Assembly: GCA_963666115.2 (NCBI GenBank)
Contig: CAXXET010000004.1
Span: 320,001 to 384,000, forward strand
DNA length: 64,000 bases
Direction of reading: 5' to 3'
DNA from: Dehalococcoidia bacterium
Lineage (GTDB): Bacteria > Chloroflexota > Dehalococcoidia > UBA6926
Every line of letters starts with the position of its first letter. The first letter of the stretch is position 1. The notes below the pieces were generated by a model. That model was not told the origin of the DNA and made no database searches. It saw only the letters and a list, made by a program, of their open reading frames with translations. This document shows positions 8-57,880 of the stretch, one piece after another. The position numbers and the translations under genes were made by a program.

Positions 8-793
8 GTGGTGTTTTTGCACGGGATCGGCGGGGGCATCGAGGATTGGTGGGCGAACCTCGGTTATTTCGGCGAGCAGGGGTATCACGTGCTCGCGCCG
101 AGTATGCCGGGGCATGGGAAATCGGAGTATCACCCCGATGAATGGGATCCAGCGGAGAGCGGCAAGACAGTCATCGCGCTGCTGGACGCATGGGGCATCG
201 ATTCCGCGCCCCTGATCGCGCACTCGGCCGGCGGGATTGCGGCGATACTGGCCGCGCTGGAGTTTCCCGAACGGGTGGAGTCGCTGGTGCTGGCCGCGCC
301 TGGCGGGCTGACGCGCAAGATGGGGTGGCCGCTGCGGCTCGTGACCATCCCGTTCGTAGGGGAGGCGATGTGGCATCCGCGGCTGCTGGCCGGACACCGC
401 GCCCGCAAGACGATCTTCGCGGATGAGAACCTGGTGAATCACACGATCATGGACGAGTGGGTGGCGCGGCACCGCGACCCGCAACAGCGCAAGGCGTTCT
501 TTGACCTGCTTCGCAGGGGAATGGATATTCGCGGGATGAAGCGGCCCTATAACCTGCGGGGGCGGGCGCGGGATGTGCGTTGCCCGACGCTCATCTTCTG
601 GGGGCGGGAGGATATGATTGTGCCTTCGCCGGAGACACGGGACGGGCGGTTAATGACGTGGCCGGAGGCGGAATTCCGGGAGCTATCGCCGTGCGCGCAT
701 TGGCCGCAGGTGGAGCAGGCGGAGGTTTTTAACAGGGAGGCGGCGGGGTTTTTGGCACGGGCGGGGGTGGATTCTTCGCTGCGCTCAGAATGA
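8..793 (+). CDS. alpha/beta fold hydrolase (MhpC/BphD-like); 5' end may lie before the window
   Basis: HGIGG oxyanion motif, AHSAGG nucleophile elbow, WGREDMI acid and CAHWPQ catalytic His; the C-terminal DSSLRSE* is encoded by a repeat. Confidence 0.85.
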   Translation: MVFLHGIGGGIEDWWANLGYFGEQGYHVLAPSMPGHGKSEYHPDEWDPAESGKTVIALLDAWGIDSAPLIAHSAGGIAAILAALEFPERVESLVLAAPGGLTRKMGWPLRLVTIPFVGEAMWHPRLLAGHRARKTIFADENLVNHTIMDEWVARHRDPQQRKAFFDLLRRGMDIRGMKRPYNLRGRARDVRCPTLIFWGREDMIVPSPETRDGRLMTWPEAEFRELSPCAHWPQVEQAEVFNREAAGFLARAGVDSSLRSE

Positions 794-795
794 CA
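770..795 (+). repeat. family A hairpin repeat GATTCTTCGCTGCGCTCAGAATGACA; supplies the stop codon of the hydrolase
   Basis: near-identical 26-mer found 8 times in the window. Confidence 0.9.
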
Positions 796-856
796 GACGG
801 GGCGGAAAAGGGATTGGTTTGGCGGGGGTCGGGGGCATATAATCGGCGTGGAGACC

Positions 857-3800: not shown

Positions 3801-4573
3801 CATGCACCAACGTCTCCGCCGAAATGGAAAGGGACAAGATTAACCTGGCGGGGATTGTGACGGCCGTGCGGACGTTTATGGTTCGCGAGAAAAATGCCGC
3901 TTCCGTCACGCTGAATGATCAATCAGGCGCCGCCACGGTGACTATCTGGCCGGAGCAATATGAGAAGTCGATGGACACATGGCAGATGAACACGCCGGTG
4001 CTTATTAGGGGAACCGTGCGTGTCCGCCAGGACGAGCCGTCCATCAATTGCGAAGAGTTCACCGTGCTGGAAGTGAGCGCGGAAGACCTTAAGGCTGCTC
4101 CGCCTGCTCCCCCGGCGGTGAACGGGCATTCATCCGCCAACGCAGTCAAAGACGAAAGCACGGACGGCGGCGCGGCGGTCGCTGAGCCTGTTCCTGTCGC
4201 AACAGAGGATGCGCCTAAGCAGGAGGCTGAGCCGGAACCGGAGAAGGGTGACGCGCCTGCTACAACGGACGTAAAGGCAGAGCGCGCGCCTGCCGTGGAG
4301 AAGCCATCGAATGGCGCGGCGGCGCGGGTGTTGATCTCCGTGATGCTGCACGAGACGCAGGACGAGGAGGCCGACGTTGACCGGCTGAACAGGGTTGTAC
4401 AGGCGTTGCGCGCACATCCGGGAGAGAGTCCGGTTCAGCTGGTGATCATGCAGCAGGGCGAGCAGTCCGTTATTACGATGGAATTCCGGACGGCTCACTC
4501 GGAGGAGTTGGAAACCGAGATCGCGGGGATTCTGGGCGGCAGTTTCCTGACGGTTCAGCCGCTGCTGATGTAG
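857..4573 (+). CDS. dnaE: DNA polymerase III alpha subunit
   Basis: PHP domain (FTHLHTHSEFSLLDG, ALTDHG), GVRGSAA, MPDIDLD, GLLKLDLLGL and FAGYAFNKAH motifs, OB fold; TATAAT at 838-843. Confidence 0.97.
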   Translation: MFTHLHTHSEFSLLDGLCRIPDLVGHACELGFESLALTDHGSLYGVVDFYREAQEAGIKPIIGVEAYVAPGSRTDRTPGNNQPYHLVLLARNDEGYHNLLRLVSIAHLEGFYYRPRMDREVLEQYGAGLIALSACMAGEVARALTEGRLDDAREAALWHKKTFDGYYIEIQRHPGIAELDRLNAMLLDLAQELDIPIVATNDLHYTRREDSDAHDVLLCIQTNSTVDDTNRMRMDDDGFYLKSEAEMRELFADLPEAIENAGRIADECNLELEFNRLLLPQIELPDGLSSFEYLEQLCYEGFEQRYAEYADTEGARQRVAYELDVIRQMDFADYFLVVWDLAAYARKQGILVGVRGSAAASAVLYCLYITNIEPLRYDLVFERFLNLERKEMPDIDLDIEDERRDELIDYVTRRYGQDRVAQIITFGTFGARAGIRDVGRAMGMSFNDVDQVARLLPAGAHPSSLQDALDRLPQFREAYDGDETVQKLVTTAMQLEGIARNASTHAAGVVISREPLVNVVPLQRPVKSAGSDDDGVPMTQWDMHRVAEAGLLKLDLLGLTNLTTLARTRDLIEQRYGKRIDIDSIPLDDAKTFDLLSAGKTMGIFQLEGQGMTRWIQRLQPQTLNEISAMIALYRPGPMEHIQHYIDSKKGKISVTFPHDDLADILHETYGVIVYQDQVLQIAQRFAGYSLGQADIVRKAMGKKVREIMEAEEQGFLDGALQQGYSQTQARDIFKLIEPFAGYAFNKAHSVSYAYIAYQTAYFKANYPREYMASLLNAHLGSQDRAGADAEECRTLGLTVAPPSVNASTEEYSIDDAADPNDDASGEDAVIRVGLSAIKNVGYGAAQSLVSERKANGPFKDLGDFIGRADLTSLNRRGLENLVKAGALDDLGERATLLENVERILSSSAQQQRQRNSSQTSMFDAMADDPALSIPSIELAEAEQPASNEEKGSWEKELMGIHFSNDPYRVLRAARLPDDLTPCTNVSAEMERDKINLAGIVTAVRTFMVREKNAASVTLNDQSGAATVTIWPEQYEKSMDTWQMNTPVLIRGTVRVRQDEPSINCEEFTVLEVSAEDLKAAPPAPPAVNGHSSANAVKDESTDGGAAVAEPVPVATEDAPKQEAEPEPEKGDAPATTDVKAERAPAVEKPSNGAAARVLISVMLHETQDEEADVDRLNRVVQALRAHPGESPVQLVIMQQGEQSVITMEFRTAHSEELETEIAGILGGSFLTVQPLLM

Positions 4574-4577
4574 TTAT

Positions 4578-4799
4578 ATGGAATGGACGCACCTGGCGAC
4601 GATGGACGACCAGATCAGCGCGGAGCTGCTGGTCCAGGCCCTGCGGGATGAGGGCATCGAGGCGCTGGTCAACCAGGGTGATACGAGCAGCTTTCTTGGC
4701 GTGATGGGACAGCCGTGCCGCGTGATGGTGCGGGCGGACGCATGGGGGCGGGCGACGGCGCTGTTGGAGAAGTGGGATTCTTCGCTACGCTCAGAATGA
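4578..4799 (+). CDS. DUF2007-like (putative signal-transducing) small protein
   Basis: AELLVQALRDEGIEA...CRVMVR pattern; directly follows dnaE; ends in repeat-derived DSSLRSE*. Confidence 0.7.
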   Translation: MEWTHLATMDDQISAELLVQALRDEGIEALVNQGDTSSFLGVMGQPCRVMVRADAWGRATALLEKWDSSLRSE

Positions 4800-4820
4800 C
4801 ATTATGCGGTCAGAATGACA
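4776..4820 (+). repeat. family A repeat plus a partial second copy (TCAGAATGACA)
   Basis: GATTCTTCGCTACGCTCAGAATGACA at 4776-4801; partial copy at 4810-4820. Confidence 0.9.
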
Positions 4821-4827
4821 TGGGGGG

Positions 4828-5286
4828 TTAGGAGTTCCAGGGGCCGATGATGTCCTCTGTGCGCCAGCCGCCGTAGAAGTCGCCATGAACCAACTCAACG
4901 GGAAGGTCATCGACGTATGCCGCGTCGAGCTTCCACGTATAGAAGGCCATGTACTCCCTGATGCCCTCGTACTCCTCTTTCGGGTTCACGTAGCTCCAGA
5001 TTGCCGCTTCCGCGTGCCGGTCACCGACACGGACGCCCCAGTAGCTGGCGGCGCCTTTGAAGGGTCAAGTGGAGGTGCGCTCCTCAGCGACAAGGAATTC
5101 CTGCCGCACGTCCTCAGGCGGAAAGTAGTAGACGGGCGGCATGTCCTTTTCAACGATGCGGACACCGCGCGTCGTTTCCGCAAGGATTTCCCCGCCGAAC
5201 TCTACGCGCAGCCGGCGGTTCACCGGCTGAACCGGGCCGGGAGACGGCGGGTAATCGGCTGCTGATTCGCGGTCGGCGGTTGTCAT
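4828..5286 (-). CDS. DUF427 family protein with an in-frame UGA (candidate selenocysteine) at 5065-5067
   Basis: PPVYYFPPEDV...ERTST-UGA-PFKGAASYW...AIWSY...GDFYGGW continues in the same frame to TAA at 4828; the UGA aligns with the Cys of the family motif CP(Y/W/F)KGxASY. Confidence 0.85.
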
Positions 5287-5344
5287 TGGATTGCTCCTTT
5301 TGATTGTGGCGTATGGGGGGATTGTACGCCTTTTGGGGGGATAA

Positions 5345-5369
5345 ATTCTTCGCTGCGCTCAGAATGACA
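5345..5369 (+). repeat. family A repeat downstream of mutL
   Basis: ATTCTTCGCTGCGCTCAGAATGACA. Confidence 0.9.
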
Positions 5370-5376
5370 TTCGGGG

Positions 5377-7209
5377 TTAGCGGCGGCCGAATTGGCGTTC
5401 AAGTTGGGCGGAGCTGAGGTGGACCATCGTCGGGCGGCCGTGGGGGCATAGGCGGGGGAAGTTGGCGTCGCTGAACAGGGTGATCAGGGACTCCATTTCG
5501 GCGAGGGAGAGGGTCTGACCGGCACGGACGGTGGAGTGGCAGGCGATGGTGGCTGCGACGCGCCTTTCCCGCATATCGACGGCGTCCGCGGCCTGGGTGA
5601 TTACGGTATCAGAAGTATCAGCTTCATCAGGGGAGGACTGGATTCCCGCTTTCGCGGGAATGACGGAGGGGTAGTCGTCGATTTCGCCGCCGGAACGCTC
5701 GTCTAGGACTTCGAGGAAGGCTTGCGGGGCCTCTGATTCTTTCAGCGTCGCGGGCATGGCGCGGAGGAGGATAGCATCGTCGCCGAACGTCTCCCACTCG
5801 AACCCGTAGGACGATAGGAGATCGCTCAAGGGGGCGATGGCATCCTGTTGGCGAGTTGTGAGTTGGACGGTGGCAGGCGTGAGGAGGCCCTGCGACGTGG
5901 CGGTCTGCTCTCTGCGCCCGGCGAGGATCTGTTCAAAGACGACGCGTTCATGGGCGGCGTGCTGATCAATGAGGTACATGCCGTCCGGGCCTTCGGCGAC
6001 GATGTAGGTGAGGCCGACCTGGCCGACGGGGCGGAGGGTGAATTGTTGCGGGGGGGGCGGTGCGCCACTGTGTTCGGTTGCCGAATTGGGGTCAAGATTC
6101 CCGCTTTCGCGGGAAAAAGGAGAGGGGGGTGGGAAGAGGGGCGGGGGTTCGAGTTGGATTTCGGCGTCGGGGGGGGCGGAGGGGATTGGGGTTCCTGCTT
6201 GCGCGGGAACAACTGCTGGGAGGTGGACGGCGAGGGTGCGGCGGAGGGCGCGCTGAACGGTTGCGATGACTTCGCCCTCACGCCGCAACCGCACTTCTGC
6301 CTTGGTGGGATGAACGTTGACGTCAATCTCATCGGGCGGGACGGTGACAAAGAGGACAACGAGGGGATAGCGCCCTCGCTGGATGATGTCGCGGTAGGCG
6401 TCGGCAATGGCGTAATAGAGGATGCGGGCCTCAACCAGGCGTCCATTGATAAAGAGAATTTGGCCAGCGCGGCGCGGGCGCGTGGTGCCCGGCTCACTGG
6501 CATAGCCCGAGACGGTCGTTCCGCCCATGGTGGTGGGCTGGATGGGAAGCATACCGGACGCGGTGTCCGGGCCCCACATTTCGAGCAGGACATGGGAAGC
6601 ATCGCCGCTGCCGGGTGAGTGGAACGCGAGGCGTCCATCGACGATGACACGGAGAGCGACATCGGGGTGCGCGAGGGCGTACTGAGTGAGGACGGTAACG
6701 CAGCGCGTCGCCTCGGCGGCGGCTGAGCGGAGGAATGAGAGGCGGGCGGGAACGTTCTTGAAGAGGTCGCGGACAAAGACGGTGGTGCCGAACGGCGCGC
6801 CCTGCATGCCCCGCTCGATGATGTCATTGTCGGCGGCGATGACGTACTGGCCGCCCTCAGTATCCGAAACGCGGGAGACGATTGTCATGCGGGCGACGGC
6901 TGCGATAGAGGCAAGAGCCTCACCGCGAAAGCCGAGAGTGCCGATGCGCTCAAGGTCCCGGACTGTTCGCAACTTGGACGTGGCGTGGCGCATGACGGCG
7001 AGTTCAAGTTCATCCTCCGGGATGCCGGATGCGTCGTCGGTAACGCGGATGAGGTCGAGGCCGCCACGCACGATTTCAACTTCGACCTGGCCGGCGCCGG
7101 CGTCGATTGCGTTTTCGACCAGTTCCTTGACGACGGACGCGGGGCGTTCGATGACCTCGCCGGCAGCGATCTTGGAGGCTACGTCTCGGTCGAGGAGTTG
7201 GATGGGCAT
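5377..7209 (-). CDS. mutL: DNA mismatch repair endonuclease MutL
   Basis: IAAGEVIERPASVVKELVEN, GFRGEALAS, DVNVHPTK, DQHAAHER, ACH and CPHGRP motifs. Confidence 0.97.
   Translation of the reverse strand: MPIQLLDRDVASKIAAGEVIERPASVVKELVENAIDAGAGQVEVEIVRGGLDLIRVTDDASGIPEDELELAVMRHATSKLRTVRDLERIGTLGFRGEALASIAAVARMTIVSRVSDTEGGQYVIAADNDIIERGMQGAPFGTTVFVRDLFKNVPARLSFLRSAAAEATRCVTVLTQYALAHPDVALRVIVDGRLAFHSPGSGDASHVLLEMWGPDTASGMLPIQPTTMGGTTVSGYASEPGTTRPRRAGQILFINGRLVEARILYYAIADAYRDIIQRGRYPLVVLFVTVPPDEIDVNVHPTKAEVRLRREGEVIATVQRALRRTLAVHLPAVVPAQAGTPIPSAPPDAEIQLEPPPLFPPPSPFSRESGNLDPNSATEHSGAPPPPQQFTLRPVGQVGLTYIVAEGPDGMYLIDQHAAHERVVFEQILAGRREQTATSQGLLTPATVQLTTRQQDAIAPLSDLLSSYGFEWETFGDDAILLRAMPATLKESEAPQAFLEVLDERSGGEIDDYPSVIPAKAGIQSSPDEADTSDTVITQAADAVDMRERRVAATIACHSTVRAGQTLSLAEMESLITLFSDANFPRLCPHGRPTMVHLSSAQLERQFGRR
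5641..5664 (+). repeat. family B hairpin repeat GATTCCCGCTTTCGCGGGAATGAC, in frame inside mutL (VIPAKAGI)
   Basis: exact 24-mer; related copies at 6096, 12326, 15528, 22057, 30707, 34823, 45391, 46785, 50120 and 50155. Confidence 0.9.
6096..6115 (+). repeat. family B repeat, in frame in the MutL linker (FSRESGN)
   Basis: GATTCCCGCTTTCGCGGGAA. Confidence 0.85.
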
Positions 7210-19363: not shown

Positions 19364-19411
19364 GATTCTTCGCTGCGCTCAGAATGACATGAGGGCGGTT
19401 TCAGAATGACA
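19364..19411 (+). repeat. family A repeat plus partial copy
   Basis: full copy at 19364-19389; TCAGAATGACA at 19401-19411. Confidence 0.9.
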
Positions 19412-22408: not shown

Positions 22409-24853
22409 CTATCTCAGCGCGTCGGCGGCGGCGAGTTCGCGGGTTTCTTCCTGGCCGATGCCGAGAATCTCGGTGAGGATGGCGTCCGTGTGTTCGTTGA
22501 GCATGGGGGCTCGGCGGAGTTCGCCTGCGTATTCGCCGTTGACTTGCCAGGGGACTTTGGCGGTGCGGCGCGGGCCTGCCTCCGGGTGGTCGATTGTGGC
22601 GAAGAAGTTTCGCGCTTGGGGGTGGGGGTGTTCGACTACTTCCAGCGGGTCGAGGATGGGGGCGGCGGAGACGCCGACGGCGGCGAGTTCATCGGCCATG
22701 GTGTATTTGTCTCGCGACTTTGTCCACGCGGCGATGATGTCATCGAGCGCGGCCTCGTTCTGCTTGCGGGATTCAGGGGTGGCAAAGCGGCTATCGTTGG
22801 CAAGGTCGTTGATGGCGCTGGACAAGCCAGTCCATTCGGAATCAGTGCGGGCGGTTATGGCAATCCATTGGTCGTCACCGTTGGCGGGGTAGATGTTGTG
22901 GGGGGCGTGGAGGGGGTGGTGGGAGCCATCGCGTTGGGGCGTGTAGCTGCCCGTGGCGCGGGCGACCATCGGCTCCGTGATGAGCGTCATGAGGGCTTCG
23001 GTCATTGCGACGTCGACATGATGCCCCATGCCGGTGCGGCGGCGGTCGTGGAGCGCGGTCAGCGTGGCCATGGCGGCGTAGGTGGCGGAGACGACGTCCG
23101 GGAAGTAGGAGCCGAGCAGCCGCTGGTGGCCGCCTGCGTAGCCGGTGACGTCCGTGAGGCCGCAGAAGGCGTTGATGATGCTGTGGAGGCCGCTGTAGTC
23201 CTTGAGGGGGCCGCTCCTGCCAAAGGCGGCGACAGACGTGTAGATGACACGGGGGTTGAGGGGGGCGATGTCTTCATAGCCGAGTCCCCACCGCTCCATG
23301 AGGCCGGTGGAGAAGTTCTCAAGCACGATGTCCGCGGACGCACACAGGCGGCGGGCAACGCCCCTGCCCTCTTCGGTCCGGAGGTTGATGGGGATGGCGC
23401 GCTTGCCCATGCTGAGCGTGTTGTAGGCGCCGGCGCGGTTCATGCCGGGAATCTCATTGGCGAACGGGGGCGAGTTGCGGAAATCGGCGGGGTTCTCACG
23501 GCTCTCAACCTGGATGACGTCCGCGCCGAGGGCGGCGAGCCACTTGGCGCAGTACGGGATGGCGATGTATTGGCCGAAGTCAATGACGCGGATGCCTTTC
23601 AGGGGGAGGGAGGGGGTGGGAGGATTCTTCGCTGCGCTCAGAATGACATCGTTTGCGTCAGTGGCATTGTTTGCGCCGTTGACTGATGTTGGCGCGGGGA
23701 CGGAACCATCGGCCTCCGGCTTGCCGGATTCGTTGCGGGGGTAGCCGGTGAGGATGAACGGCGCGCCGGTGAAAGGGACTTCCTGGCCGTCCTGCGTGGC
23801 AACCGCGCGGATGAAACGGCGCTCGCGGACGTGTTCGTGGGTCAGAACCTGGTCGAGGGTCGTGGACCAGAACGCGGGGATGTTGCGGGCTTGCAGCTCT
23901 TCTGTGATTTCCTTGCCGGTACGCTCCATCGTCCAGTTGGTCATCAGGACGCTGACGACGTCCCAGTTCATGGCGCGCTTCGTGCCATCGTCGAAGTCCT
24001 CCGTGTAGGCCCACTCCGGGCTGCCCATGACCTCGGCGAACTGCTCCCAGTGGCGGGCGCTCATGGCGACGATGACGATCCAGCCGTCCTTGCACTCGAT
24101 GTAGCAGTTGGGCTGGCGGGCAAGGATGTTGGGGCCGCGATCAAGCACACGCTCCAGGTATTCGCGCTGCAGAACGGGGTGGTAGTTGAGGGCGGTGACG
24201 GCCTCGAGTTCGGAGAGTTCGATGCGCGTGCCGGTGACGCCCGGCCCTGTTCCGTTGCCACTGCCGGATTCCGCGTAGAGCGTGGCGAGCGTGGCGACGA
24301 CGCCGACTGCGCCGGCCATGAGCGATGGGACGGACGCGCCGGTGGGCATGAGCGGCGGTTCATTGGGGAGATCATAGGTGGTGTCCGGCGGGCCGGGGGT
24401 GGTCCACGCCATGCCGCAGAGCGACCACGTTGCGAGATCGCTGGGCGGGAGGTTCGCAAGCGGGCCGTCCGCGCCGTAGGGCGTGAGAGAGACGACGGTC
24501 AGATGGGGGTAGCGGGCGTGGATGGCGTCCCAATCAAGGAAGGAGTTGTCACCGTCGAACAGGCCAACGTCCTCGATGAGGATGTCCTGCCCATCAAGGG
24601 CTGCGACCAGGGATTCCGGCGTGACGGTTTCGGCGTCAGTGTCAGAGCGGTGGGACTTGTTGGCGTTGAGGGAGCGGTGGAGCATGGGGTCCCATTCCGG
24701 CATTTCGCGTCCCTTGAGGCGGACGTAGAGGTTCCTCATGCGGCGGACGCGGTCGACGTCCGCGCCAAGCTCGCCGAGGAGGCGGGCGGCGTAGGCTCCG
24801 GCGAACGATGCGGTGACATCGACAACTCGCAGATGCGACAGCGGACCTGACAT
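22409..24853 (-). CDS. tandem double-domain CaiB/BaiF (family III) CoA-transferase
   Basis: two domains (PLSHLRVVD..; PLKGIRVIDF..) with ADIVLENF and GHHVDVAM motifs. Confidence 0.9.
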   Translation of the reverse strand: MSGPLSHLRVVDVTASFAGAYAARLLGELGADVDRVRRMRNLYVRLKGREMPEWDPMLHRSLNANKSHRSDTDAETVTPESLVAALDGQDILIEDVGLFDGDNSFLDWDAIHARYPHLTVVSLTPYGADGPLANLPPSDLATWSLCGMAWTTPGPPDTTYDLPNEPPLMPTGASVPSLMAGAVGVVATLATLYAESGSGNGTGPGVTGTRIELSELEAVTALNYHPVLQREYLERVLDRGPNILARQPNCYIECKDGWIVIVAMSARHWEQFAEVMGSPEWAYTEDFDDGTKRAMNWDVVSVLMTNWTMERTGKEITEELQARNIPAFWSTTLDQVLTHEHVRERRFIRAVATQDGQEVPFTGAPFILTGYPRNESGKPEADGSVPAPTSVNGANNATDANDVILSAAKNPPTPSLPLKGIRVIDFGQYIAIPYCAKWLAALGADVIQVESRENPADFRNSPPFANEIPGMNRAGAYNTLSMGKRAIPINLRTEEGRGVARRLCASADIVLENFSTGLMERWGLGYEDIAPLNPRVIYTSVAAFGRSGPLKDYSGLHSIINAFCGLTDVTGYAGGHQRLLGSYFPDVVSATYAAMATLTALHDRRRTGMGHHVDVAMTEALMTLITEPMVARATGSYTPQRDGSHHPLHAPHNIYPANGDDQWIAITARTDSEWTGLSSAINDLANDSRFATPESRKQNEAALDDIIAAWTKSRDKYTMADELAAVGVSAAPILDPLEVVEHPHPQARNFFATIDHPEAGPRRTAKVPWQVNGEYAGELRRAPMLNEHTDAILTEILGIGQEETRELAAADALR
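23623..23648 (+). repeat. family A repeat, in frame in the inter-domain linker (VILSAAKN)
   Basis: exact 26-mer inside the CDS. Confidence 0.9.
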
Positions 24854-42702: not shown

Positions 42703-42746
42703 ATTCTTCGCTGCGCTCAGAATGACAAGCCGCGCTCAGAATGACA
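42702..42746 (+). repeat. family A repeat plus partial copy; the partial copy supplies the stop of the convergent peptidase
   Basis: full copy at 42702-42727; GCGCTCAGAATGACA at 42732-42746. Confidence 0.9.
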
Positions 42747-44948: not shown

Positions 44949-45434
44949 TCAGCCTTGCGCAACTGCCTGTACAGGTGATTCTACAACGGAGACGGTTCCC
45001 GTCATACCGGGGTCCGAATGGCCGGGGATGGAGCAGATGAGATCGAATTCGCCGACCTTCGTTGGCGTGAAGCGAACTGTCTTCTTGGAACCAATCCGCA
45101 TCGATCCCGTTGCGACGCTGAACTCCTCGATGACGAGATCGTGGTCGACGGTGCCGAGGTTCCTGAACTCGATGACGGCTTCCCGGTTCACGGGAATCTC
45201 GATGACATCCGGTTCAAATGCCCATTCGGTGCCGACGACGATGTAGCTGCCGTCGGGTTGGAGGCCCGTCGCGCCGATGTCCTGGTTGTTGTTGCAGGCG
45301 GCGAGGGCGAGGGTGAGGAGAAGGAGGAGGGGGAGATTCTTCGCTGCGCTCAGAATGACATAGCCGATGGATTGCGGGGCCGGCCCGATGGATTCCGGCT
45401 TTCGCCGGAATGAGGGGAAAATACGTTTCGTCAT
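44949..45434 (-). CDS. cupredoxin-domain lipoprotein
   Basis: LALAAC lipobox; H..CSIPGH..GM type-1 copper site; start overlaps the folD stop. Confidence 0.85.
   Translation of the reverse strand: MTKRIFPSFRRKPESIGPAPQSIGYVILSAAKNLPLLLLLTLALAACNNNQDIGATGLQPDGSYIVVGTEWAFEPDVIEIPVNREAVIEFRNLGTVDHDLVIEEFSVATGSMRIGSKKTVRFTPTKVGEFDLICSIPGHSDPGMTGTVSVVESPVQAVAQG
45335..45413 (+). repeat. family A copy (45335-45360) and family B variant (45391-45413) inside the cupredoxin signal region
   Basis: exact family A 26-mer; GATTCCGGCTTTCGCCGGAATGA with a compensatory stem change. Confidence 0.85.
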
Positions 45435-57333: not shown

Positions 57334-57861
57334 GTGAGAGTCATGGATATTCTTGCCCTGATAGACCGCATTCGGCAGAATCACGCGATCGAGCACGCGA
57401 CTATTGCCGTGCTGGCGCGGAAGCACGACCAGTTTGGGCGGCTCGGCGGCAATGCCACGCAGGACGGGTTCTTCGTCTATGGCCCGACGACGGCAGACCG
57501 CATCCAGGAGGCGGGGCAGGAGGCGGTGCAGCGGCTGCGGGCGGGGGAATCCGATCTCGCTATTTCGCCGTTCTGCGGCACGAATTTCCTGCTGGGCGGT
57601 GCGACGACCGCCCTTGTGACCAGCATTATCCTCGGCAGGCGCAACAGGATCGGACGGCTGCCGCAGGCGATGAGCCTTTCGGCGCTGGCGCTGATCGGTT
57701 CGTTCAGAGCGGGCGCGTACGTGCAGCGCAGATGGACGACGAAGGCGGACATCGGCGAGCTGGAGATCAAGAGCGTGTCGCGGTTGGGGGGCGCGGGGAG
57801 GCCGCTGCACCGCGTGTACACGGGGTTGGCGAAGGGGGATTCTTCGCTGCGCTCAGAATGA
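57334..57861 (+). CDS. conserved hypothetical protein (DUF6391-like)
   Basis: RQNHAIEHAT...LAISPFCGTN pattern; ends in repeat-derived DSSLRSE*. Confidence 0.7.
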   Translation: MRVMDILALIDRIRQNHAIEHATIAVLARKHDQFGRLGGNATQDGFFVYGPTTADRIQEAGQEAVQRLRAGESDLAISPFCGTNFLLGGATTALVTSIILGRRNRIGRLPQAMSLSALALIGSFRAGAYVQRRWTTKADIGELEIKSVSRLGGAGRPLHRVYTGLAKGDSSLRSE

Positions 57862-57880
57862 CAGGTTTTGTCAGAATGAC
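57838..57880 (+). repeat. family A repeat plus partial copy
   Basis: full copy at 57838-57863; TCAGAATGAC at 57871-57880. Confidence 0.9.

What the first reader, a model, noticed from the sequence alone, without database searches (positions are those of the whole stretch)
4828..5286. Candidate selenoprotein: DUF427 with UGA at the conserved Cys and a SECIS-like hairpin
Seen: the ORF track stops at TGA 5065-5067, but the frame continues for 78 more codons with intact family motifs (ST-UGA-PFKGAASYW...AIWSY...GDFYGGW). Exactly 11 nt after the UGA a hairpin begins (5053-5034: CGCC-G-CCA-GCUAC-UGG-GGCG, with a bulged base and a G first in the loop). Established: DUF427 proteins have CP(Y/W/F)KG at this position; bacterial Sec insertion uses a hairpin just 3' of UGA, and the E. 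coli fdhF minimal element starts 11 nt downstream. Inference: a Sec-containing DUF427, implying a redox or nucleophilic role for this residue. I do not recall DUF427 as a standard selenoprotein family but cannot verify novelty.
Basis: partly seen in the sequence, partly recalled or inferred. Interest (0 to 1): 0.82.

Follow-up and report, generated by a model that had tools for sequence, protein, structure and literature searches.

The report
Selenocysteine-containing DUF427 protein gene
This is a real gene for a small protein of unknown function (DUF427) in which the family's conserved cysteine is replaced by selenocysteine, encoded by an in-frame UGA, which marks that residue as the likely working centre of the protein.

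Summary
On the minus strand, one frame runs from ATG 5286 to TAA 4828 with a single in-frame TGA (5067-5065, codon 74). It matches Pfam DUF427 across the TGA. The TGA sits where 15 of 15 aligned homologues have Cys.

The genome carries selA, selB, tRNA-Sec and a Sec-containing selD, and otherwise uses TGA as its commonest stop. All 21 congeneric species genomes have the orthologue. 19 keep TGA at this codon (68-93% protein identity) and 2 have TGC. Downstream dN/dS is 0.06-0.26, so the frame is translated past the TGA.

The 51 nt after the UGA fold better than synonymous recodings (z -2.5). The two Cys congeners show no such excess.

A pattern scan of species-representative genomes found 73 solid TGA-form DUF427 genes, mostly Dehalococcoidia and other Chloroflexota, and some carrying Proteobacteria, Planctomycetota or Gemmatimonadota labels. 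SelA was present in all 10 other genomes tested.

DUF427/PF04248 is not in a May 2026 catalogue of 119 prokaryotic selenoprotein families, and no NCBIfam model hits the protein. Supplements and the BSepDB site could not be checked.

Verdict: a genuine selenoprotein gene, probably an uncatalogued family. Its biochemical function is still unknown.

The parts
4828..5286 (-). Complete coding sequence of the Sec-containing DUF427 protein (152 residues, U at 74; stop TAA 4830-4828)
   Evidence: Searches give the frame. Pfam PF04248 matches at E 1.2e-31 over residues 27-117, spanning the TGA. The AF2 model has pLDDT 93.5 and matches PDB 3DJM.
5065..5067 (-). In-frame UGA read as selenocysteine (codon 74), followed by C (UGA-C context)
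   Evidence: It aligns with Cys in 15 of 15 homologues. TGA is kept at this codon in 19 of 21 congeners, and the other 2 have TGC. C follows the UGA in 58 of 60 unique TGA forms, against 18 of 41 Cys forms.
5032..5055 (-). SECIS candidate hairpin 1 (nt 13-36 after the U of UGA; bulged G; apical loop about 20 nt after the UGA)
   Evidence: RNAfold. A hairpin over these codons is found in all congeneric TGA forms. In 31 Dehalococcoidia sequences the corresponding helix is 91.7% paired, with compensatory changes at 2 of 7 pairs; slid controls pair only 18-47%.
5013..5031 (-). Hairpin 2 directly after hairpin 1 (8 bp, 3-nt loop). It may be part of the SECIS or an auxiliary stem.
   Evidence: RNAfold. 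It is present in the window's subclade and the deeper congeners, with a U-A to C-G exchange visible between L098/L013-type and L143/L137-type sequences. selD of this genome also has two successive hairpins after its UGA.
5294..5298 (-). Shine-Dalgarno-like AGGAG, 7 nt upstream of the ATG
   Evidence: Read directly.

Best explanation
The minus-strand gene 5286..4828 encodes one 152-residue DUF427-family protein whose codon 74 (UGA) is decoded as selenocysteine.

Proposed mechanism: the ribosome reaches UGA-C, a context I recall as a poor termination signal. The mRNA just downstream folds into a hairpin (5055-5032, followed by a second at 5031-5013). SelB, loaded with Sec-tRNA(Sec) made by SelA from SelD's selenophosphate, binds this hairpin and delivers Sec. 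Translation then continues through the conserved PFKG...YW...W.Y...GDFYGGW half.

Sec replaces the nearly invariant Cys of the family and is the only Cys-type residue in this protein. It is therefore most likely the catalytic nucleophile or redox centre of a beta-tent-fold enzyme. It would be recycled by an external thiol, not by an internal resolving Cys.

Shown: the frame, the Cys/UGA correspondence, conservation of the UGA, purifying selection downstream, the Sec machinery, and excess RNA structure that is specific to the UGA forms.

Inferred: SelB binding to this hairpin, actual Se incorporation, and the chemical role of the residue.
For: Frame and family:
- One frame with a single TGA.
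- PF04248 at E 1.2e-31 across the TGA.
- PDB 3DJM at E 1.6e-14 by sequence and Foldseek E 1.8e-9, TMt 0.87.
- Cys at the TGA column in 15 of 15 homologues, and at least 90% Cys in 121 sequences.

Sec machinery in G000:
- SelA, E 7e-136.
- SelB, 329.8 bits, over the 242 cut-off.
- SelD, E 5e-116, with its own in-frame TGA.
- One tRNA-SeC(tca).
- TGA is otherwise a stop: it ends 653 of 1489 open frames of at least 300 codons.

Conservation:
- The orthologue is in 21 of 21 congeneric species genomes.
- 19 have one TGA, always at codon 74, at 68-93% identity. 2 have TGC.
- dN/dS downstream of the TGA is 0.06-0.26 in 11 pairs, with dS from 0.37 to saturation. Upstream it is 0.04-0.13.

RNA structure:
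- The window gene has z -2.54 against synonymous recodings.
- Six congeneric TGA forms have z -1.6 to -2.9. The two congeneric Cys forms have z -0.60 and +0.33.
- Over all unique sequences, TGA forms have mean z -1.53 (n=60) and Cys forms -0.49 (n=41).
- The helix is 91.7% paired, with 2 compensatory pairs.

Wider occurrence:
- 75 of 80 examined pattern hits in species-representative genomes are DUF427 with TGA at the Cys codon, 73 of them at E<=3.4e-19.
- In an unselected sample of the class, 28 of 63 DUF427-bearing genomes have a TGA form.
- SelA is present in 10 of 10 other genomes tested.

Independent assemblies: contigs of 4 runs cover 5065-5067 with no listed difference.
Against: - No direct evidence of translation or Se incorporation was obtained.
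- The hairpins overlap conserved codons (A-x-Y-W-G-V), so part of their conservation is protein-driven.
- No single structure is shared by all lineages, and Rfam has no match. It is open which of the two hairpins binds SelB.
- Covariation is modest: 2 of 7 pairs, one of them changed in a single sequence. The tested helix was also derived from the same sequences.
- The Sec-versus-Cys comparison uses related sequences, so its p-value overstates the case.
- Two congeners manage with Cys, so Sec is not indispensable.
- MAG labels outside Chloroflexota may include binning errors. L092 is identical to L091 over the stretch compared.
Confidence: 0.9

Rival explanations
1. A pseudogene: a recent TGC/TGT to TGA nonsense mutation, or an assembly error, in an ordinary Cys-type DUF427 gene.
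For: A single base change would produce it. Two congeners (G001, G009) have TGC at this codon.
Against: TGA sits at the same codon in 19 of 21 congeneric species down to 68% identity. Downstream dN/dS is 0.06-0.26 at dS up to saturation. The same TGA-for-Cys replacement occurs in 58 further loci of other DUF427 subtypes. Contigs of 4 runs agree.
Confidence: 0.01
2. UGA acts as a stop or a leaky stop. The cell would make a 73-residue N-terminal fragment, perhaps plus a separately initiated C-terminal piece, or occasional near-cognate read-through (Trp, Cys or Arg) with no selenium involved.
For: Gene callers split the locus into 73-aa and 53-aa ORFs. UGA-C is, as I recall, a leaky termination context. 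No protein-level data exist.
Against: The 25 codons between the TGA and the first downstream start (GTG 4989) carry family-invariant residues (K77, G78, A80, Y82, W97, Y99) in frame with the upstream part. The fold needs both halves: strands 65-74 and 78-87 form one sheet in the model. The excess RNA structure is specific to TGA forms. The full Sec machinery is present, and SelA co-occurs in 10 of 10 other genomes tested.
Confidence: 0.04
3. UGA is recoded through the SelB route but inserts cysteine, by a selC-like tRNA charged with Cys. I recall this from work on 'facile recoding of selenocysteine' and did not look it up here.
For: Cys would be chemically acceptable at this site. Such systems are described, from my recollection, in some uncultured bacteria.
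Against: ARAGORN finds a single tRNA with anticodon UCA, typed as tRNA-SeC. SelA and a Sec-type SelD are present and intact, which argues for genuine Sec synthesis.
Confidence: 0.03

Closest known systems
DUF427 / PF04248 (Pfam id NTP_transf_9), structure PDB 3DJM from Rhodobacter sphaeroides
   Same: Same family and fold: Pfam E 1.2e-31, phmmer E 1.6e-14 with CP.KG.ASY aligned, Foldseek TMt 0.87 at rmsd 1.5.
   Different: 3DJM and the full-length database homologues I aligned (15; at least 90% of 121 sequences) have Cys where this gene has UGA. The family has no assigned function.
Bacterial selenoprotein genes with an intragenic SECIS, e.g. E. coli fdhF (features recalled, not looked up here)
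   Same: In-frame UGA aligned to Cys in homologues. A hairpin starts about 9-11 nt after the UGA, with its apical loop about 20 nt downstream. selA, selB, selC and selD are in the genome.
   Different: The hairpin sequence is unrelated. A bulged G replaces the bulged U. A GU loop motif is seen in the proteobacterial DUF427 forms (CGUGC/CGUGU loops) but not clearly in the window. SelB binding was not tested.
Catalogued predicted selenoprotein families built on DUFs (DUF3179, DUF166, DUF1573, DUF1858, DUF523) in Table 1 of PMC13188914
   Same: Same kind of evidence (Sec/Cys pairs plus a SECIS-like hairpin) and the same status (function unknown).
   Different: A different fold and family. PF04248 is not among the 119 rows read, and no NCBIfam selenoprotein model hits the protein.
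MsrB / mammalian MsrB1 (SelR), a Sec- or Cys-dependent methionine-R-sulfoxide reductase
   Same: Passages of PMC4287342 place DUF427 in the same beta-tent fold class as MsrB and GFA. Sec/Cys interchange at one catalytic residue in MsrB1 is from my recollection.
   Different: The paper states there is no significant sequence similarity. DUF427 lacks the zinc site. Foldseek listed Mis18/yippee domains weakly (probability 0.97, TMt 0.68) but no MsrB among the rows shown. The substrate is unknown.

Membership tests
Bacterial selenoprotein gene (UGA-Sec recoding) | In-frame UGA at a position occupied by Cys in homologues | tested here: met
   Cys in 15 of 15 aligned homologues. TGC in the two congeneric non-TGA orthologues.
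Bacterial selenoprotein gene (UGA-Sec recoding) | UGA conserved in orthologues, with a translated, selected frame downstream | tested here: met
   19 of 21 congeners have TGA at codon 74. Downstream dN/dS is 0.06-0.26.
Bacterial selenoprotein gene (UGA-Sec recoding) | Stable hairpin immediately 3' of the UGA (bacterial SECIS) | tested here: met
   Hairpins at 5055-5032 and 5031-5013. z -2.54 against synonymous recodings, while Cys congeners show no excess. 91.7% pairing and 2 compensatory pairs.
Bacterial selenoprotein gene (UGA-Sec recoding) | selA, selB, selC and selD present in the genome | tested here: met
   selD itself has an in-frame TGA.
Bacterial selenoprotein gene (UGA-Sec recoding) | Selenium found in the protein; SelB binds the hairpin | not testable with these tools
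   No proteomic, 75Se or binding data are available. No RNA run was listed.
DUF427 (PF04248) | Pfam model above the gathering score | tested here: met
   108.8 bits against a cut-off of 22.1.
DUF427 (PF04248) | Fold of the solved member 3DJM | tested here: met
   AF2 pLDDT 93.5. Foldseek E 1.8e-9, rmsd 1.5 over 107 columns.
Any of the 119 catalogued prokaryotic selenoprotein families | Domain accession listed in Table 1 of PMC13188914, or a hit to an NCBIfam selenoprotein model | tested here: not met
   The table was read in full and has no PF04248 or DUF427 row. There are 0 NCBIfam hits at E<=0.01. Full-text searches for 'selenoprotein' with DUF427, COG2343 or PF04248 gave 2 (irrelevant), 0 and 0 papers.
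MsrB-like beta-tent thiol/selenol reductases | Shared fold with a catalytic Cys/Sec at an equivalent site | tested here: inconclusive
   The fold class rests on passages of PMC4287342. Foldseek shows only weak yippee/Mis18 matches. The wider structural search could not be run. Residue equivalence was not examined.
MsrB-like beta-tent thiol/selenol reductases | Zn-binding CxxC pairs | tested here: not met
   The protein has no Cys other than U74. The paper also says DUF427 lacks the site.

The most novel reading that the evidence does not exclude
DUF427 is a widespread selenoprotein family that has not yet been catalogued. Its Sec/Cys residue would be the catalytic centre of a zinc-less beta-tent enzyme that works like MsrB, reducing or attacking an oxidised sulfur or selenium substrate. 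That substrate might be an intermediate of thio/seleno-imidazole metabolism, since DUF427 genes are co-encoded with EgtB/OvoA/SenA-type synthases.
Probability: 0.3. Interest if true: 0.7.

Novelty: new member of a known kind. Interest (0 to 1): 0.58.

Why it matters
DUF427 is a large bacterial and fungal family. It has had a crystal structure since 2008 (3DJM) but still has no assigned function.

A natural Sec/Cys exchange is among the strongest sequence-level signs that a cysteine is a catalytic redox or nucleophilic residue (general knowledge of selenoproteins, recalled). The finding therefore points experiments at one residue and at redox chemistry.

It also adds a selenoprotein that does not have a thioredoxin fold, in a lineage (Dehalococcoidia) that the BSepDB paper lists among the most selenoprotein-rich (passages).

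Finally, it exposes a systematic annotation error. The protein collection searched here holds the gene as separate 73-aa and 53-aa fragments.

Tried and rejected
Ergothioneine link in this genome: a JACS 2026 table (passage) lists COG2343/DUF427 as co-encoded with 5.7% of EgtB/OvoA/SenA-type synthases. G000 has no EgtB match (0 of 1), so the lead gives no local support.

Gene neighbourhood:
- In the genus the gene follows mutL and faces dnaE and a DUF2007 ORF.
- In tandem-domain relatives the recurrent neighbours are a Zn-dependent alcohol dehydrogenase (14 loci), a luciferase-like monooxygenase, an SDR and a metallo-beta-lactamase.
- No consistent pathway emerged.

A single conserved SECIS across all lineages: rejected. 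Hairpins differ in register and position between subtypes.

Rfam: 0 matches at E<=1 in 4400-5600.

Expression: no RNA holder was listed, so nothing can be said about it.

Order of Sec/Cys events: the tree of the genus clade (20 Sec and 4 Cys rows, plus 5 outgroup rows) is unresolved at its base. It allows 1-3 switches, so no direction is claimed.

Literature:
- The two papers holding both 'DUF427' and 'selenoprotein' do not link the two.
- Most other 'DUF427' hits are word-start matches to DUF4270-4279, for example PMC6212724.
- ECDomainMiner's weak 'silver' association with deoxyhypusine monooxygenase was not pursued.
- Table 4 of the GOS 2008 paper lists no family with a COG2343 domain.
- Supplements, the BSepDB website and GenBank annotations could not be inspected. 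Any of them may already list this family.

Not examined:
- 7 of the 87 pattern stretches were not listed.
- 72 matches were not listed.
- 3 'other letter' rows were not shown.
- The TGA position in 7 of the 8 non-genus genomes was not verified. Only G425 was checked.
- The tally (126 of 401) includes the unpublished genome G327. No sequence from it was read, and no other claim rests on it.

Full report
THE OBSERVATION

On the minus strand, an ATG at 5286-5284 is preceded by AGGAG at 5298-5294. It opens a frame that ends at TAA 4830-4828 and is interrupted once, by TGA at 5067-5065. With that codon read as U, the product is 152 residues. Plain ORF calling gives only a 73-residue piece (5065..5286) and a 53-residue piece (4828..4989).

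The read-through product matches Pfam PF04248 (DUF427, Pfam id NTP_transf_9) at E 1.2e-31 over residues 27-117, so the match runs across the TGA. No NCBIfam model matches.

In an alignment with 15 database homologues of 48-70% identity, the TGA column is Cys in all 15. In a 121-sequence alignment the column is at least 90% Cys.

IS THE ORGANISM A SELENOCYSTEINE USER?

The genome (2.07 Mb, 9 contigs, 63.4% G+C) encodes:
- SelA, E 7e-136;
- SelB, 329.8 bits against a cut-off of 242;
- SelD, E 5e-116, itself with one in-frame TGA;
- one tRNA-SeC with anticodon UCA.

TGA is not reassigned. It terminates 653 of 1489 open frames of at least 300 codons, more than TAG (586) or TAA (250).

IS THE TGA AN ACCIDENT?

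All 21 other species genomes of the same genus hold the orthologue. In 19 of them there is exactly one in-frame stop, TGA, always at codon 74. Their protein identity to the window ranges from 93% down to 68%. The other two (G001, G009) have TGC there.

Nei-Gojobori estimates on 11 pairs give dN/dS of 0.06-0.26 for codons 75-148 and 0.04-0.13 for codons 1-73. Synonymous divergence runs from 0.37 to saturation. The part after the TGA is therefore translated and selected as strongly as the part before it.

Logan contigs from four public runs (three studies) that hold close relatives cover 5065-5067. They show synonymous-looking differences nearby but none listed at these three positions; three rows of that table were not shown.

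A pseudogene or a sequencing error is excluded for practical purposes.

THE RNA STRUCTURE

RNAfold of the 61 nt from just before the UGA gives two consecutive hairpins:
- Hairpin 1: nt 13-36 counted from the U of UGA (window 5055-5032). It has ten pairs, a bulged G and a 3-nt loop, or a 5-nt loop beginning with G if the closing G-C is opened.
- Hairpin 2: nt 37-55 (5031-5013), with eight pairs and a 3-nt loop.

The segment folds at -27.9 kcal/mol, z -2.05 against dinucleotide shuffles.

This stretch also encodes conserved residues, so I compared it with synonymous recodings drawn from each locus's own codon usage. The window's 51 nt after the UGA fold at -24.6 against -17.1 +/- 3.0 kcal/mol (z -2.54; 1 of 200 as stable).

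Six congeneric TGA forms (the window among them) give z from -1.63 to -2.94. The two congeneric Cys forms give -0.60 and +0.33. This is the cleanest control, because the extra structure is there only where the TGA is.

Over all unique sequences, TGA forms (n=60) average z -1.53 and Cys forms (n=41) -0.49. These sequences are related, so the Mann-Whitney p of 1.5e-7 overstates the case.

In 31 distinct Dehalococcoidia sequences that share the register of hairpin 1, the seven-pair helix is 91.7% paired. Two pairs change on both sides: 21-31 is U-A in 13 sequences and C-G in 8, and 18-34 is C-G in 30 and U-A in 1. With the 3' strand slid by 1-3 columns only 18-47% of cells pair. Both compensatory changes couple a synonymous third-position change to an amino-acid change on the other strand.

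Hairpins in other lineages lie in other registers, or further downstream with CGUGC/CGUGU-type loops in proteobacterial forms. There is therefore no universal element, which I recall is usual for bacterial SECIS. Rfam gives nothing.

The base after the UGA is C in 58 of 60 unique TGA forms, against 18 of 41 Cys forms. UGA-C is, from my recollection, the weakest bacterial termination context.

selD of this genome likewise has two successive hairpins after its UGA.

Which of the two hairpins binds SelB is open.

HOW FAR DOES IT REACH?

An unselected sample of 401 genomes of the class has DUF427 in 63. Of these, 28 have a match with one in-frame TGA: 20 in the window's genus, counting the window's own genome, and 8 in other genera of two families. 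I verified the codon only for the genus and for G425. A genome of another family in the phylum, G223, has it too.

A degenerate DNA pattern demanding TGA followed by the family motif found 87 stretches in about 186,000 species-representative genomes. 80 were listed. 75 of these match a DUF427 profile with the TGA at the Cys position, 73 of them at E<=3.4e-19.

Fifteen of the 73 are the window's genus type, leaving 58 of other types.

By record title the 73 are:
- 59 Chloroflexota (49 Dehalococcoidia, including SAR202-labelled MAGs);
- 11 Pseudomonadota;
- 1 Planctomycetota;
- 1 Gemmatimonadota;
- 1 unlabelled.

These are MAG labels. One 'Rhodospirillaceae' locus (L092) is identical to a SAR202 locus (L091) over the stretch compared, so some labels may be binning errors.

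SelA is present in all 10 other genomes I tested. Five are Chloroflexota, including the two Cys-form congeners. Five are from the other phyla.

Architectures differ. There are single domains of about 150 residues, short forms, and tandem DUF427-DUF427 proteins. In the tandem proteins I printed, only the first domain carries Sec, and the second has Ser (L077) or Cys (L071) at the equivalent position.

WHAT IT IS AND HOW IT WORKS

The best reading is a genuine selenoprotein gene. SelB with Sec-tRNA(Sec) is recruited by the hairpin(s) just after UGA-74, and one 152-residue DUF427 protein is made.

The AlphaFold model is confident (pLDDT 93.5). It puts residue 74 at the end of strand 65-74, next to strand 78-87. 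It superposes on the DUF427 crystal structure 3DJM. Foldseek also gives weak matches to Mis18/yippee domains.

Passages of PMC4287342 place DUF427 in the beta-tent fold together with MsrB, GFA, yippee and CULT, and note that DUF427 lacks their zinc site.

The window protein has no cysteine at all apart from U74, so no internal resolving Cys is available. Many Cys-form homologues have a second Cys in the MDAC motif, where this genus has Ala.

I therefore infer a single catalytic selenol that acts as a redox centre or nucleophile and is recycled by an external thiol. No call tests this chemistry.

Neighbourhood gives no pathway. The gene follows mutL and faces dnaE and a DUF2007 ORF in the genus, and sits beside various dehydrogenases elsewhere.

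A table in PMC13674229 reports COG2343/DUF427 co-encoded with 5.7% of EgtB/OvoA/SenA-type sulfoxide/selenoxide synthases. This is a lead for the family, but this genome has no EgtB.

COMPARISON WITH WHAT IS KNOWN, AND NOVELTY

The mechanism is ordinary bacterial Sec recoding. The family is the new element.

Table 1 of the May 2026 review PMC13188914, which I read in full, lists 119 prokaryotic selenoprotein families and subfamilies with their domain accessions. PF04248/DUF427 is not among them. Its 'hypothetical' rows carry NCBIfam accessions, and no NCBIfam model hits this protein.

Full-text searches gave the following:
- 'selenoprotein' with 'DUF427': two papers, neither linking the two.
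- 'selenoprotein' with 'COG2343': no papers.
- 'selenoprotein' with 'PF04248': no papers.

Table 4 of the GOS 2008 paper lists no family with this domain. In passages I read from the BSepDB paper, Dehalococcoidia MAGs are named among the most selenoprotein-rich genomes, but DUF families do not appear in its main text.

In the protein collection searched here the gene appears as unnamed 73-aa and 53-aa fragments.

VERDICT

This is a new member of a known kind: an apparently uncatalogued selenoprotein family.

Interest is moderate to good. New selenoprotein families are reported regularly. This one gives a first functional handle on a structurally solved but functionless family, and it is common in Dehalococcoidia.

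Noticed in passing
window 771-796, 4777-4802, 5345-5370, 19365-19390, 23624-23649, 42703-42728, 45336-45361, 57839-57864 (all minus strand): A 26-nt repeat (ATGTCATTCTGAGCGYAGCGAAGAAT, with an internal ATTCT/AGAAT inverted repeat) occurs 8 times in one orientation, against 0 expected. Two copies flank the DUF427 gene in its intergenic regions. Metagenome contig depth spikes at these places, for example 683-836 in run X2 at 4755-4816. It looks like a REP/MITE-like element that is abundant in the community.
   Followed up: partly
window 5640-5663 and 6095-6118 (inside mutL, 5377-7209 minus); 9 further copies in the window: A palindromic 24-nt repeat (consensus TCATTCCCGCGAAAGCGGGAATCC) has 11 copies in the window, against 0 expected. 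Two copies lie in frame inside the mutL ORF, translated as ..IPAKAGI.. and ..SRESGN... The copy at about residue 515-523 falls just after the MutL_C Pfam match stops, at profile position 112 of 142. This looks like an in-frame insertion of a repeat element into a coding region.
   Followed up: partly
G000:C6:420976-421899 (outside the window; locus L010): selD of this genome is itself a selenoprotein gene (..CAG-U-AAKLGP..). Two successive hairpins follow its UGA, the second with 8 bp and loop GUC.
   Followed up: partly
window 4578-4799 (+): A small 73-aa ORF directly after dnaE and convergent with the DUF427 gene matches DUF2007 ('putative prokaryotic signal transducing protein', E 7e-10).
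   Followed up: no
loci L077 and L071 (tandem DUF427 proteins): In the tandem DUF427-DUF427 proteins I printed, only the first domain has Sec. The second domain has Ser (L077) or Cys (L071) at the equivalent position. This may be a catalytic domain paired with a degenerate one.
   Followed up: partly
G401:C2:79729-79980 and G617:C172:1788-2039: Two low-scoring DUF427 matches in other Dehalococcoidia genomes contain one in-frame TAG. I did not look at them, so they could be pseudogenes or something else.
   Followed up: no
L092 versus L091: A contig labelled Rhodospirillaceae carries a DUF427 segment identical to one in a SAR202-labelled MAG, with the same HMM score and the same 65 nt after the TGA. 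This suggests misbinning or a duplicated record.
   Followed up: no
window 4828-5286 (protein residue 123): Most Cys-form homologues have a second Cys in an MDAC(Y/F)V motif. The window's genus has Ala there (LDAAYV), which leaves U74 as the only Cys-type residue in the protein.
   Followed up: no
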